From: the human T2T-CHM13v2.0 reference genome, Homo sapiens
Reading direction: 5' to 3' (one strand)
Length of the DNA: 64,000 nucleotides
Assembly (NCBI RefSeq): GCF_009914755.1
Contig: NC_060925.1
In this document: in pieces, positions 30,040-46,620 of the stretch
Position numbering within the stretch: the stretch's first letter is position 1
Layout of the letters: each line of letters begins with the position of its first letter
The notes under the pieces: generated by a model
What the model was told of the DNA's origin: nothing
The model's input: only the letters and a program-made list of their open reading frames with translations
Database searches by the model: none
Translations under genes and position numbers: made by a program

Positions 30040-30439
30040 TGCTGCAACATTGCCTGTGCTGCCTGGGGGCTCAGGGGATTGATGAGTAAGATGTGTTCTT
30101 TCATTCGGCAGCTCTCTGCTGAGCCCCAGTGGTGTGCCTGGCTCTGGGCAAGGTTGCACAGAGCAATCCTTATGGGGTGCCCAGTCAGGAGCAGAGAAAC
30201 ATGATTGGGATGGCAGATGGAAGGCAGGTAGATGTGGGGGCCTGAGAGAATGACAGGAGAGAGATGAGCCTTCAGAGGCTCTTTCAGGCTCCCCCGCACA
30301 CTGCCTGATGTAGCTGCCAGGGTCCAGCATCTGCTCTTGGCCAGCAGAGGCTAACTCCATGGCTGCAGTGTGAGTGTCAGCTGTGTAGTGGGGGTGTCCA
30401 CTGGCGCGACCCACACTGACCAGCCCCCTATCCTGGCAG

Positions 30440-30508
30440 GACCAGTATCAGCTGTGCTACCGTGCGGCCCTGGAGTACCTCGGCAGCTTTGACCACTATG
30501 CAACGTAA
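30440..30508 (+). CDS. PTPRF: PTPRF last coding segment ([22 protein letters not shown])
   Basis: LAR-family C-terminus; TAA at 30506-30508. Confidence 0.97.
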
Positions 30509-31790
30509 CTACCGCTCCCCTCTCCTCCGCCACCCCCGCCGTGGGGCTCCGGAGGGGACCCAGCTCCTCTGAGCCATACCGACCATCGTCCAGCCCTCCT
30601 ACGCAGATGCTGTCACTGGCAGAGCACAGCCCACGGGGATCACAGCGTTTCAGGAACGTTGCCACACCAATCAGAGAGCCTAGAACATCCCTGGGCAAGT
30701 GGATGGCCCAGCAGGCAGGCACTGTGGCCCTTCTGTCCACCAGACCCACCTGGAGCCCGCTTCAAGCTCTCTGTTGCGCTCCCGCATTTCTCATGCTTCT
30801 TCTCATGGGGTGGGGTTGGGGCAAAGCCTCCTTTTTAATACATTAAGTGGGGTAGACTGAGGGATTTTAGCCTCTTCCCTCTGATTTTTCCTTTCGCGAA
30901 TCCGTATCTGCAGAATGGGCCACTGTAGGGGTTGGGGTTTATTTTGTTTTGTTTTTTTTTTTCTTGAGTTCACTTTGGATCCTTATTTTGTATGACTTCT
31001 GCTGAAGGACAGAACATTGCCTTCCTCGTGCAGAGCTGGGGCTGCCAGCCTGAGCGGAGGCTCGGCCGTGGGCCGGGAGGCAGTGCTGATCCGGCTGCTC
31101 CTCCAGCCCTTCAGACGAGATCCTGTTTCAGCTAAATGCAGGGAAACTCAATGTTTTTTTAAGTTTTGTTTTCCCTTTAAAGCCTTTTTTTAGGCCACAT
31201 TGACAGTGGTGGGCGGGGAGAAGATAGGGAACACTCATCCCTGGTCGTCTATCCCAGTGTGTGTTTAACATTCACAGCCCAGAACCACAGATGTGTCTGG
31301 GAGAGCCTGGCAAGGCATTCCTCATCACCATCGTGTTTGCAAAGGTTAAAACAAAAACAAAAAACCACAAAAATAAAAAACAAAAAAAACAAAAAACCCA
31401 AGAAAAAAAAAAAGAGTCAGCCCTTGGCTTCTGCTTCAAACCCTCAAGAGGGGAAGCAACTCCGTGTGCCTGGGGTTCCCGAGGGAGCTGCTGGCTGACC
31501 TGGGCCCACAGAGCCTGGCTTTGGTCCCCAGCATTGCAGTATGGTGTGGTGTTTGTAGGCTGTGGGGTCTGGCTGTGTGGCCAAGGTGAATAGCACAGGT
31601 TAGGGTGTGTGCCACACCCCATGCACCTCAGGGCCAAGCGGGGGCGTGGCTGGCCTTTCAGGTCCAGGCCAGTGGGCCTGGTAGCACATGTCTGTCCTCA
31701 GAGCAGGGGCCAGATGATTTTCCTCCCTGGTTTGCAGCTGTTTTCAAAGCCCCCGATAATCGCTCTTTTCCACTCCAAGATGCCCTCATA

Positions 31791-31813
31791 AACCAATGTG
31801 GCAAGACTACTGG
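31791..31813 (+). promoter_or_regulatory. Extensively complementary miR-199-3p site in PTPRF 3'UTR
   Basis: AACCAATGTGGCAAGACTACTGG vs reverse complement of miR-199a-3p TAACCAATGTGCAGACTACTGT. Confidence 0.75.
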
Positions 31814-32140
31814 ACTTCTATCAATGGTACTCTAATCAGTCCTTATTATCCCAGCTTGCTGAGGGGCAGGGAGAGCGCCTCTTCCTCTGGGCAGCGCTAT
31901 CTAGATAGGTAAGTGGGGGCGGGGAAGGGTGCATAGCTGTTTTAGCTGAGGGACGTGGTGCCGACGTCCCCAAACCTAGCTAGGCTAAGTCAAGATCAAC
32001 ATTCCAGGGTTGGTAATGTTGGATGATGAAACATTCATTTTTACCTTGTGGATGCTAGTGCTGTAGAGTTCACTGTTGTACACAGTCTGTTTTCTATTTG
32101 TTAAGAAAAACTACAGCATCATTGCATAATTCTTGATGGT

Positions 32141-32146
32141 AATAAA
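32141..32146 (+). terminator. PTPRF polyadenylation signal AATAAA
   Basis: AATAAA in AU-rich context, TGTA elements upstream, GT-rich sequence downstream. Confidence 0.85.
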
Positions 32147-32859
32147 TTTGAATAATCAGATTTCTTACAAACCAGGACTCTGTCTCAGCTGTTTCTGGAA
32201 CCAAAGAGTCTGGGCCAAATCAGTAGCTAGGATGGGTTCTGGAGATTCCCTGCTCCTGAGGAGACGGGGAGGGTACCCTAAGTATTTGTGCCAGTGTAGG
32301 CTCCTGGCATGGCTACCCACTTTCAGAAAGGAGTGGTTATAAACCCTGAAAACCAGGCCACCAAGAGCCAGCCAGGCCAGAGCCACCAGTGCATGTGAAG
32401 AGCACCCTAGGCCGGGGAGCATACCCTTTGCCTCTCTTTCCCTTTAAGATTCTGTGGGTTGCACTGTCGGGGCATTGGGACTGCCCCTCTCCCACTACCT
32501 TGGAGGAGAGGGATGGCCCTGTGGCAGTAGAGACTGAATGTATGGAAATTGGTTAGTGAGATCTCCTGTAATTATTGCAATGTGGATAATGGACACAAAA
32601 AACAGTGTGTCCATCTGGCCCCTGGACACACAGCTGCATCACCCACTGAGCTGTGCAGCTGCTCCACTGGTGAGCAGACAAGTCCTACCAGGTTGTCAAA
32701 TTGTGGAACTTCTAGGGATACAGATGAAGGAGACCCAGAACAAGCTGCGAAGAGAAATGCGTAAGTCAGCAACGACCACACCAAGGCAGCATCTGACCCA
32801 GGGAAGGCTTCCTGGAGGAGGTGGCATTCAGAGTGTTTCGTAGAATGAGTAGCAGTTAG

Positions 32860-43639: not shown

Positions 43640-46620
<2,981 letters not shown>

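What the first reader, a model, noticed from the sequence alone, without database searches (positions are those of the whole stretch)
31791..31813. Candidate target-directed miRNA degradation (TDMD) trigger for miR-199-3p in the PTPRF 3'UTR
Seen: 5'-AACCAATGTG GCA AGACTACTG G-3'. Against miR-199a/b-3p (ACAGUAGUCUGCACAUUGGUUA, recalled), nt 2-10 pair contiguously (31804-31812), then a 1-nt target bulge, nt 11-12 pair, another 1-nt bulge, and nt 13-21 pair contiguously (31791-31799). That is 20 of 22 miRNA nt in Watson-Crick pairs. Established: seed + central distortion + long 3' pairing is the architecture of ZSWIM8-dependent TDMD triggers such as Cyrano/miR-7 and Nrep/miR-29b, and a bulge at nt 10/11 disfavours AGO2 slicing. 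Inference: PTPRF mRNA may moonlight as a non-coding regulator that degrades or sequesters the mesenchymal miR-199-3p (skewing the 3p/5p ratio), or is an unusually strongly repressed target. No 5p-like partner arm lies nearby, so it is not a miRNA gene copy. I cannot confirm whether this has already been published.
Basis: partly seen in the sequence, partly recalled or inferred. Interest (0 to 1): 0.85.

Follow-up and report, generated by a model that had tools for sequence, protein, structure and literature searches.

The report
Near-complete miR-199-3p match in PTPRF 3'UTR
The PTPRF messenger RNA carries one site that pairs with 20 of the 22 bases of microRNA miR-199a/b-3p; it most likely makes PTPRF an unusually tightly bound target of that microRNA, and whether it also destroys the microRNA is untested.

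Summary
Window 31791-31813 (+), in the last exon and 3'UTR of PTPRF, pairs with nt 2-21 of hsa-miR-199a-3p. I took the miRNA from the RefSeq annotation of MIR199A2. Only two single target bases are bulged. Duplex energy is -29.0 to -29.3 kcal/mol, against -37.3 for a perfect complement.

It is the only such site in a mature mRNA that I found in the genome for this miRNA. 0 of 4000 shuffled guides matched it in this window. Over all miRNAs and all 3'UTRs, my arithmetic expects about one such site by chance. Conservation would therefore decide, and no vertebrate genomes were available.

It is not a miR-199 gene copy, a repeat or a paralogue relic.

PTPRF is already a published miR-199a-3p target, with a reporter assay and protein changes in human cells, sheep and mouse (PMC10743674).

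The TDMD reading fits the seed and the 9-10 bp of 3' pairing. It fails the central internal loop that validated triggers have and that ZSWIM8 recognition depends on. I found no miR-199-3p among named ZSWIM8 substrates. TDMD remains possible, at about 0.2.

The parts
30509..32171 (+). PTPRF 3'UTR (1663 nt) that hosts the site. The site starts 1283 nt after the stop codon and ends 358 nt before the annotated transcript end.
   Evidence: RefSeq annotation given with the task. All 34 annotated PTPRF mRNAs end at 32171. There is no masked repeat of >=100 nt in the exon. The segment 31500-32171 matches only itself in the genome.
31791..31799 (+). 3' pairing block: 9 contiguous Watson-Crick pairs to miR-199a/b-3p nt 13-21. 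It extends to 10 pairs if G31800 pairs with nt 12.
   Evidence: Block energy is -9.7 kcal/mol (nt 13-21) and -13.7 (nt 12-21). The review gives -9.6 to -17.1 for validated triggers.
31800..31804 (+). Central segment of 5 target bases facing miRNA nt 10-12. Three of them pair. One G (31800 or 31801) and one A (31803 or 31804) are bulged.
   Evidence: bulge positions are degenerate at p about 0.5 each, and nt 10, 11 and 12 are paired at P = 0.99, 0.94 and 1.00. Forcing nt 10-12 open raises the energy from -29.0 to -22.7 kcal/mol.
31805..31812 (+). Seed region: pairs to miRNA nt 2-9. The 7mer-m8 seed match is 31806-31812.
   Evidence: This is the only 7mer-m8 or 6mer match to miR-199a-3p in the 3'UTR.
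31813..31813 (+). Base opposite miRNA nt 1. It is G and not A, so the site is not an 8mer.
31790..31790 (+). Base opposite miRNA nt 22. It is A facing A, so the last base of the 22-nt form is unpaired. For a 21-nt isoform the pairing would reach the 3' end.
   Evidence: A 21-nt form of the miRNA is the one listed in a table of PMC7995974.
31372..31377 (+). Context only: an upstream AATAAA. If it is used, the shorter 3'UTR would lack the site. The distal AATAAA at 32141 fits the annotated end.
   Evidence: motif scan. Usage was not tested.

Best explanation
The site is a real, very high-affinity response element for miR-199a/b-3p. AGO loaded with miR-199-3p docks on the 7mer-m8 seed match (31806-31812). 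It then zips up 9-10 further pairs to the miRNA 3' half (31791-31800), and possibly the centre as well. This gives much longer occupancy than a seed-only site. The main result is ordinary TNRC6-mediated repression of PTPRF mRNA and protein in cells that make miR-199, which are mesenchymal cells such as dermal papilla. PTPRF is thereby kept low there.

Shown: the pairing, its uniqueness for this miRNA, and (in print) repression of a PTPRF reporter and of PTPRF protein.

Inferred: that the published effect runs through this very site, that the extra pairing adds affinity in cells, and that repression rather than miRNA decay or slicing is the dominant outcome.
For: - Pairing of nt 2-21 at -29.3 kcal/mol.
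- It is the single miR-199-3p seed match in the 3'UTR. There is no 7mer-m8 in the 4238 nt of coding exons inside the window.
- All 34 annotated isoforms carry it.
- Local RNA is not strongly structured: fold z = +1.5. Predicted accessibility is at the 3'UTR median.
- PMC10743674 (passages read) reports that the wild-type but not the mutant PTPRF reporter is repressed by the mimic. PTPRF protein falls with mimic or agomir and rises with inhibitor or antagomir in HEK293T, lamb skin and mouse skin. miR-199a-3p is concentrated in dermal papilla cells where PTPRF protein is low.
- A horse study also lists PTPRF among predicted miR-199a-3p targets (table in PMC7995974).
- The centre is paired and has no internal loop, unlike validated TDMD triggers.
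Against: - Canonical repression needs only the seed, so it does not explain why 13 further bases pair. That excess is either chance or points to another function.
- The reporter fragment and its mutation in PMC10743674 are shown only in a figure and a supplement that I could not see. That it is the orthologue of 31791-31813 is my inference.
- That paper does not report PTPRF mRNA in the passages I read.
- Conservation of the seed and of the 3' block could not be tested here.
- The site is a 7mer-m8 without the A opposite nt 1.
Confidence: 0.5

Rival explanations
1. TDMD trigger. In AGO the short central pairs (nt 10-12) do not form, and the duplex adopts a seed helix, an internal loop of 3 miRNA nt by 5 target nt, and a 9-bp distal helix. 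The miRNA 3' end leaves the PAZ pocket. ZSWIM8-CUL3 then ubiquitylates AGO, and miR-199a/b-3p is destroyed while miR-199a-5p is spared.
For: - Seed pairing plus 9-10 contiguous 3' pairs starting at nt 12/13. This is the favoured register, and the 3' energy of -9.7 to -13.7 lies inside the range for validated triggers.
- The duplex is stronger than two validated triggers scored the same way: NREP:miR-29b-3p at -26.3 and SERPINE1:miR-30c-5p at -21.7.
- NREP also pairs nt 1-11 and has only a 3-nt miRNA bulge, so central pairing is not an absolute bar.
- With nt 10-12 open, the target loop would be 5 nt, close to the wild-type CYRANO loop length of 4.
- The review notes that centrally paired targets can sometimes induce TDMD.
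- A fully complementary target still gave intermediate polyubiquitylation.
- Long flanks are available on both sides, and the site is unique for this miRNA.
Against: - No miRNA base is unpaired between nt 2 and 21. Validated triggers have 3-11 unpaired nt.
- Central pairing is described as incompatible with the TDMD conformation.
- The 40-degree bend that ZSWIM8 recognises depends on the internal loop. Changed loop lengths and full complementarity reduced ZSWIM8 binding.
- Opening nt 10-12 costs about 6.3 kcal/mol in the free duplex.
- The site is a 7mer-m8 and not an 8mer, and nt 22 is unpaired.
- The site would probably miss the TDMDfinder filter of a bulge of 2-8 nt (criteria read; that it fails is my inference).
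- miR-199 occurs 0 times in the main text of each of Jones 2023, Shi 2023 (12 mouse tissues, 51 sensitive miRNAs), Li 2021 (AGO-CLASH) and the 2026 EMBO J study of 8 breast lines, 4 of them basal.
- 'TDMD' with 'PTPRF' finds 0 papers.
- The full substrate lists are in supplements that I could not open.
Confidence: 0.2
2. The extra pairing is fortuitous. The site works as an ordinary 7mer-m8 site, or barely at all, and the 13 additional pairs have no selected role.
For: - The bare '3' block + loop + seed block' architecture occurs genome-wide at the chance rate: 3 non-gene hits against 2 in the reversed control and 3.27 expected.
- Substitution variants of the 20-mer complement also occur about as expected: 175 hits with <=3 mismatches, of which 12 non-gene hits have <=2.
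- My arithmetic gives about one site of this quality across a few hundred miRNAs and the whole 3'UTR set.
- The paralogues PTPRD and PTPRS have no comparable site.
- The flanks show no similarity to the miR-199 loci.
Against: - For this miRNA alone the expectation is only about 0.005-0.03.
- 0 of 4000 shuffled guides matched it in the window.
- The two partners have published functional coupling in three species.
Confidence: 0.2
3. AGO2 slicing site. The two bulged bases flip out, the duplex stacks through the centre, and AGO2 cuts PTPRF mRNA between the bases facing nt 10 and 11. This would give catalytic destruction of the mRNA.
For: - All of nt 2-21 can pair.
- In about half of the free-duplex ensemble, the bases facing nt 10 and nt 11 (31803, 31802) are adjacent, with the bulges lying outside that step.
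Against: - Two bulges lie within the four central steps.
- The review states that disrupted central pairing prevents endonucleolytic cleavage.
- The high-throughput AGO2 cleavage study that I wanted for bulged targets is not held, so tolerance of 1-nt target bulges was not checked.
- I saw no degradome evidence.
Confidence: 0.07

Closest known systems
NREP (libra) 3'UTR site for miR-29b-3p, a validated ZSWIM8-dependent TDMD trigger in an mRNA
   Same: Both are protein-coding mRNAs with a single 3'UTR site. Both have seed pairing running on into the centre (NREP nt 1-11) and 9 contiguous 3' pairs. Both duplexes are very stable: -26.3 for NREP and -29.3 here.
   Different: - NREP leaves 3 miRNA bases (nt 12-14) unpaired, and its pairing reaches the last base, nt 23. 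The PTPRF site leaves no miRNA base unpaired between nt 2 and 21, bulges 2 target bases instead, and leaves nt 22 unpaired.
- NREP has knockout and ZSWIM8 evidence. The PTPRF site has none.
CYRANO (OIP5-AS1) site for miR-7, the reference TDMD trigger used for the ZSWIM8 structure
   Same: Seed pairing plus extensive 3' pairing, within a long flanking RNA.
   Different: CYRANO has an internal loop (loop length 4) that gives a 40-degree bend. Changing the loop length or removing the loop weakens ZSWIM8 binding (PMC13083262). It has an 8mer seed and 14 contiguous 3' pairs. I did not fetch the CYRANO site itself.
Ordinary conserved miRNA target site with 3'-supplementary pairing
   Same: A 7mer-m8 seed match in a 3'UTR. 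Published reporter and protein repression of PTPRF by miR-199a-3p.
   Different: Supplementary pairing is usually 3-5 bp. Here there are 9-10 contiguous pairs plus the centre, 20 of 22 bases in all.
ApoE mRNA proposed as a TDMD trigger for miR-199a-5p (PMC10909902)
   Same: An mRNA proposed to lower a miR-199 strand through 3'-end pairing. It is the only TDMD claim for the miR-199 hairpin that my searches found.
   Different: It concerns the other strand (5p). It involves several sites in the coding sequence. It rests on over-expression of untranslatable mRNA. miR-199a-3p occurs 0 times in that paper.
Mammalian miRNA slicing targets (fully or nearly fully paired sites)
   Same: Near-complete complementarity through the centre.
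   Different: Two 1-nt target bulges lie within the central four steps, and no cleavage data exist. Known examples were not examined here.

Membership tests
ZSWIM8-dependent TDMD trigger site | Seed pairing to the miRNA. It is universal in validated triggers and is typically an 8mer with A/U flanks. | tested here: met
   7mer-m8 at 31806-31812, with pairing continuing to nt 9-10. It is not an 8mer, because G faces nt 1. The 10 nt upstream are 50% A/U and the 10 nt downstream are 70% A/U.
ZSWIM8-dependent TDMD trigger site | [quoted passage not shown] | tested here: met
   9 pairs (nt 13-21) at -9.7 kcal/mol; 10 pairs (nt 12-21) at -13.7. Criteria are from the review. Nt 22 is unpaired.
ZSWIM8-dependent TDMD trigger site | Internal loop or bulge involving the miRNA central region (3-11 unpaired nt) that bends the duplex. 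| tested here: not met
   There are 0 unpaired miRNA bases between nt 2 and 21 and only 2 bulged target bases. Nt 9-12 are paired at P>=0.94 in the free duplex. A looped conformer (nt 10-12 open) costs about 6.3 kcal/mol. Behaviour inside AGO was not testable.
ZSWIM8-dependent TDMD trigger site | The miRNA rises on ZSWIM8 loss without its passenger strand. | not testable with these tools
   No expression data were available here. miR-199 occurs 0 times in the main texts of four ZSWIM8/TDMD data papers. Their full lists are in closed supplements, and Shi 2020 is not held.
ZSWIM8-dependent TDMD trigger site | Loss or mutation of the site raises the miRNA post-transcriptionally. | not testable with these tools
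   This needs an experiment. None is in print.
ZSWIM8-dependent TDMD trigger site | Conservation of the 3'-pairing block and of the surrounding sequence. | not testable with these tools
   No vertebrate genomes were in reach. The paralogues PTPRD and PTPRS lack the site. The segment has no other copy in the human genome.
Canonical miRNA response element | A 7-8mer seed match in the 3'UTR of a mature mRNA, on the sense strand. | tested here: met
Canonical miRNA response element | Repression of a reporter that is lost on site mutation, and response of the endogenous protein. | not tested
   Published in PMC10743674 (passages). The exact fragment is in a figure or supplement that I could not see.
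AGO2 slicing target | Uninterrupted pairing across the centre (about nt 9-13) around the scissile phosphate. | tested here: not met
   Two 1-nt target bulges lie between the bases facing nt 9 and nt 13. The step facing nt 10/11 is uninterrupted in only about half of the ensemble.
AGO2 slicing target | Cleavage products ending at the position facing nt 10/11. | not testable with these tools
   No degradome data were available here.
miR-199 precursor (Rfam mir-199) or a decayed copy | A hairpin with a partner arm, and similarity beyond the mature sequence. | tested here: not met
   None of the 5 weak Rfam matches (E up to 10) in 30400-32400 is mir-199 or overlaps the site. Both strands of 31720-31890 fold worse than shuffles, with z = +1.5 and +1.75. 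Alignment to the three loci gains only 0-1 score units outside the mature footprint.

The most novel reading that the evidence does not exclude
The PTPRF 3'UTR is an endogenous ZSWIM8-dependent trigger of an unusual build. It has two single-base target bulges instead of an internal loop. It catalytically destroys miR-199a/b-3p while sparing miR-199a-5p, and the same site lets miR-199-3p repress PTPRF. The result would be a mutual-antagonism switch between an epithelial phosphatase and a mesenchymal miRNA. It would also be the first trigger known for miR-199-3p and would widen the accepted trigger architecture.
Probability: 0.15. Interest if true: 0.7.

Novelty: new member of a known kind. Interest (0 to 1): 0.4.

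Why it matters
miR-199a-3p is an abundant miRNA of mesenchymal cells. PTPRF (LAR) is a receptor phosphatase that restrains beta-catenin signalling in the one study I read (PMC10743674).

A site that pairs 20 of 22 bases is far beyond what repression needs, so it is a clean test case for an open question: what decides whether a highly complementary site ends in target repression, target slicing or miRNA destruction?

The site sits exactly between a 'trigger' and a 'fully complementary target'. These are the two states that the 2026 ZSWIM8 structure paper contrasts. Testing it in the published in-vitro ubiquitylation and slicing assays would be informative whatever the result.

If it is only a strong target site, the finding is ordinary, and the target relation is already in print.

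Tried and rejected
- miRNA gene copy or antisense relic: rejected. No Rfam mir-199 hit at E<=10, no hairpin on either strand, and no flank similarity to MIR199A1, MIR199A2 or MIR199B.
- Repeat or paralogue origin: rejected. The segment 31500-32171 matches only itself, there is no masked repeat in the exon, and PTPRD and PTPRS 3' ends have only weak sites or none.
- A structured or unusually open local RNA: not seen. Accessibility is at the 3'UTR median.
- Co-targeting by the co-transcribed miR-214 and by miR-199a-5p: only weak matches, namely one 7mer-A1 and 6mers. Not pursued.
- Counting paired bases with RNAduplex as a statistic: dropped. With G:U pairs and small loops, 282 of 25,616 shuffled seed sites reach >=20 'paired' bases. 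I used energy and explicit patterns instead.
- Conservation: I found no route. No vertebrate genomes were available, a search of papers for an 18-base string of the site gave 0 papers, and four papers that co-mention PTPRF and miR-199 gave only target lists or unrelated mentions.
- Literature for priority. 'TDMD'+'PTPRF' gave 0 papers. 'PTPRF'+'ZSWIM8' gave 6 papers, none about miRNA decay judging by title and abstract start. 'TDMD'+'miR-199' gave 34 papers, 30 listed; the only primary TDMD claim concerns ApoE and the 5p strand. 'ZSWIM8'+'miR-199a-3p' gave 6 papers, all reviews by title.
- Unread lead: PMC4357785 holds PTPRF, miR-199a-3p and 'complementarity'. It may already remark on this pairing.
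- Supplements were closed. These may bear on the claims: Table S1 of Shi 2023, Datasets EV1-EV3 of the 2026 EMBO J paper, the TDMDfinder tables, and Figure S1/Table S3 of PMC10743674.

Full report
THE OBSERVATION. I did not rely on the recalled miRNA. The RefSeq table for chr1 places hsa-miR-199a-3p at chr1:171501273-171501294 (-) in MIR199A2. I fetched that locus and the MIR199B and MIR199A1 loci and cut out the 22-mer. RNAduplex pairs miRNA nt 2-21 with the site, which is 20 of 22 bases, all Watson-Crick. Two single target bases are bulged. The energy is -29.0 to -29.3 kcal/mol, against -37.3 for a perfect complement.

There are three refinements. First, the base facing nt 1 is G, so the seed site is a 7mer-m8. 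Second, nt 22 faces an A and is unpaired. Third, each bulge lies in a doublet of identical bases, so its position is degenerate at p about 0.5 each way.

CHANCE. In this window the site is far outside the null. 0 of 4000 shuffled guides reached -29 kcal/mol in both strands (128 kb). The best of 25,616 shuffled seed sites was -28.0. The real guide has 4 seed matches in the window, and the other three score -13.8 to -18.0.

Genome-wide, a pattern of the 9-base 3' block, 0-8 free bases and the 8-base seed block gave 6 hits. These are this site, the antisense strands of the three miR-199 genes, one hit inside the DMD gene span and one intergenic hit on chrX. The reversed control gave 2, and uniform base frequencies predict 3.27. 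So the bare architecture occurs at the chance rate.

The 20-base complement with up to 3 substitutions gave 175 hits, against 54 for the control. Of the 12 non-gene hits with <=2 mismatches, 3 are intergenic, 2 are antisense to the gene they lie in, 5 lie sense within a protein-coding gene span and 2 lie sense within a lncRNA span. Exon status was checked only for CAMK1G, which is intronic.

What sets the PTPRF hit apart is that it lies on the sense strand of a 3'UTR and that nt 10-12 pair as well. Annotated 3'UTRs are 0.93% of strand-specific chr1. From these numbers I estimate about 0.005-0.03 such sites per miRNA. That is unlikely for miR-199-3p alone, but it amounts to about one across a few hundred miRNAs. 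This last step is my arithmetic and not a tool result. Sequence statistics therefore cannot separate selection from luck at the scale of a whole-genome scan.

WHAT IT IS NOT. It is not a miR-199 gene copy. A permissive Rfam scan of 30400-32400 gave 5 weak matches, none to mir-199 and none at the site. Both strands of 31720-31890 fold worse than their shuffles, with z = +1.5 and +1.75. Alignment to the three miR-199 loci gains only 0-1 score units beyond the mature footprint. It is not a repeat or a duplicated segment. The paralogues do not share it: PTPRD has two weak 6mer sites and PTPRS has none.

CONTEXT.
- The site lies 1283 nt into a 1663-nt 3'UTR and 358 nt from its end. All 34 annotated PTPRF transcripts carry it.
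- It is the only miR-199-3p seed match in the 3'UTR. The coding exons inside the window have no 7mer-m8.
- Predicted accessibility is at the median of the 3'UTR.
- An AATAAA at 31372 could give a shorter 3'UTR without the site. This was not followed up.

WHAT IS IN PRINT. PTPRF is already a published target of miR-199a-3p in PMC10743674 (passages read).
- A wild-type PTPRF reporter was repressed by the mimic and a mutant was not.
- PTPRF protein fell with mimic or agomir and rose with inhibitor or antagomir in HEK293T cells, lamb skin and mouse skin.
- The miRNA was concentrated in dermal papilla cells.
- The figure and supplement that show the tested site were not available to me. That it is this site is inferred from there being only one seed match.

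I found no paper that links PTPRF to miRNA decay. 'TDMD'+'PTPRF' gave 0 papers. 'PTPRF'+'ZSWIM8' gave 6 papers, unrelated by title and abstract start. A search for an 18-base string of the site gave 0 papers. The only TDMD claim for the miR-199 hairpin concerns ApoE coding sequence and the 5p strand (PMC10909902, passages). One unread lead remains: PMC4357785 holds PTPRF, miR-199a-3p and 'complementarity' (listing only).

ANATOMY AGAINST VALIDATED TRIGGERS. The 2024 review (PMC10899785, section 11 read) gives the common features of validated triggers:
- seed pairing, usually an 8mer;
- at least 6 contiguous 3' pairs in 12 of 13 triggers, often from nt 12/13, at -9.6 to -17.1 kcal/mol;
- 3-11 unpaired bases forming a central loop.

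The 2026 structure paper (PMC13083262, passages) shows several things. The internal loop permits a 40-degree bend that sets the trajectory ZSWIM8 reads. Changing the CYRANO loop length (wild type 4) substantially reduces ZSWIM8 binding and ubiquitylation. A fully complementary target binds ZSWIM8 weakly and gives intermediate ubiquitylation.

The PTPRF site meets the seed and 3'-pairing features: 9-10 pairs at -9.7 to -13.7 kcal/mol. It has no unpaired miRNA base, and nt 9-12 are paired at P>=0.94 in the free duplex. Opening nt 10-12 would give a 3-by-5 loop at a cost of about 6.3 kcal/mol.

Two validated triggers scored the same way:
- NREP:miR-29b-3p is -26.3, with nt 1-11 paired, nt 12-14 bulged and nt 15-23 paired.
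- SERPINE1:miR-30c-5p is -21.7, with a 5-base target loop.
The PTPRF duplex is therefore at least as strong. It is built differently, and it sits between a trigger and a fully complementary target.

IS miR-199-3p A KNOWN ZSWIM8 SUBSTRATE? miR-199 occurs 0 times in the main text of each of these papers:
- Jones 2023;
- Shi 2023, with 12 embryonic tissues and 51 sensitive miRNAs;
- Li 2021, AGO-CLASH;
- the 2026 EMBO J study of 8 breast lines, 4 of them basal, with 63 candidates and 19 high-confidence substrates.
The full lists are in supplements that were closed, and Shi 2020 is not held. This is a weak negative.

MECHANISM. My best reading (0.5) is a very high-affinity canonical response element. 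The seed docks, the 3' half zips up, occupancy is long, and PTPRF is repressed in miR-199-rich mesenchymal cells. Shown: the pairing and the published repression. Inferred: that this site mediates the repression and that repression is the dominant outcome.

The rivals are:
- TDMD trigger (0.2). It is possible if the centre stays open inside AGO.
- Fortuitous extra pairing on an ordinary seed site (0.2).
- AGO2 slicing (0.07). It is disfavoured by two central bulges, and I could not read the study that would show how well 1-nt target bulges are tolerated.
Simple sequestration of the miRNA by one site per mRNA is unlikely to matter for so abundant a miRNA. This is an inference and was not tested.

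LIMITS. Conservation, the decisive test, could not be run. No expression, CLIP or degradome data were in reach. Supplements were closed. One possibly relevant paper went unread.

VERDICT. The target relation is already known. The near-complete pairing appears not to have been discussed in the papers I could search. The TDMD label is a hypothesis that passes two anatomical criteria and fails the third. I rate interest at 0.4. The site is worth a conservation check and a look-up in existing ZSWIM8 data sets before any bench work.

Noticed in passing
window 31372-31377 and 32141-32146: There are two AATAAA signals in the PTPRF 3'UTR. The upstream one lies 419 nt before the miR-199-3p site, so a short 3'UTR isoform would escape the site.
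   Followed up: no
window 30999 and 31488: miR-214-3p is co-transcribed with MIR199A2 from DNM3OS. It has a 7mer-A1 and a 6mer match in the same 3'UTR. miR-199a-5p has one 6mer at 30614.
   Followed up: partly
L008, G000 chrX:31992602-31992622 (-): Inside the DMD gene span, on the sense strand, lies the 9-base 3' block, a 4-base loop and the 8-base seed block for miR-199-3p. This has a more trigger-like loop than the PTPRF site. Its exon or intron status was not checked.
   Followed up: no
G000 chr7:33336834-33336853 (-): A 20-base complement of miR-199-3p nt 2-21 with a single mismatch. It lies antisense to BBS9, so it is not in that mRNA.
   Followed up: partly
G000 chr1:208852899 (+) and chrX:68228999 (+): Two identical 20-mers with 2 mismatches to the complement. 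One is in a CAMK1G intron and one is in the EDA gene span. They may be copies of one repeat.
   Followed up: no
window 46316-46463 (-): An Rfam Metazoa_SRP match at 71 bits, just above the gathering score of 70, in the PTPRF-KDM4A intergenic region. It is probably a 7SL-derived (Alu-type) repeat rather than an SRP RNA gene.
   Followed up: no
literature: PMC4357785 (2013, liver-cancer miRNA meta-analysis) contains PTPRF, miR-199a-3p and 'complementarity'. It may already note this pairing.
   Followed up: no
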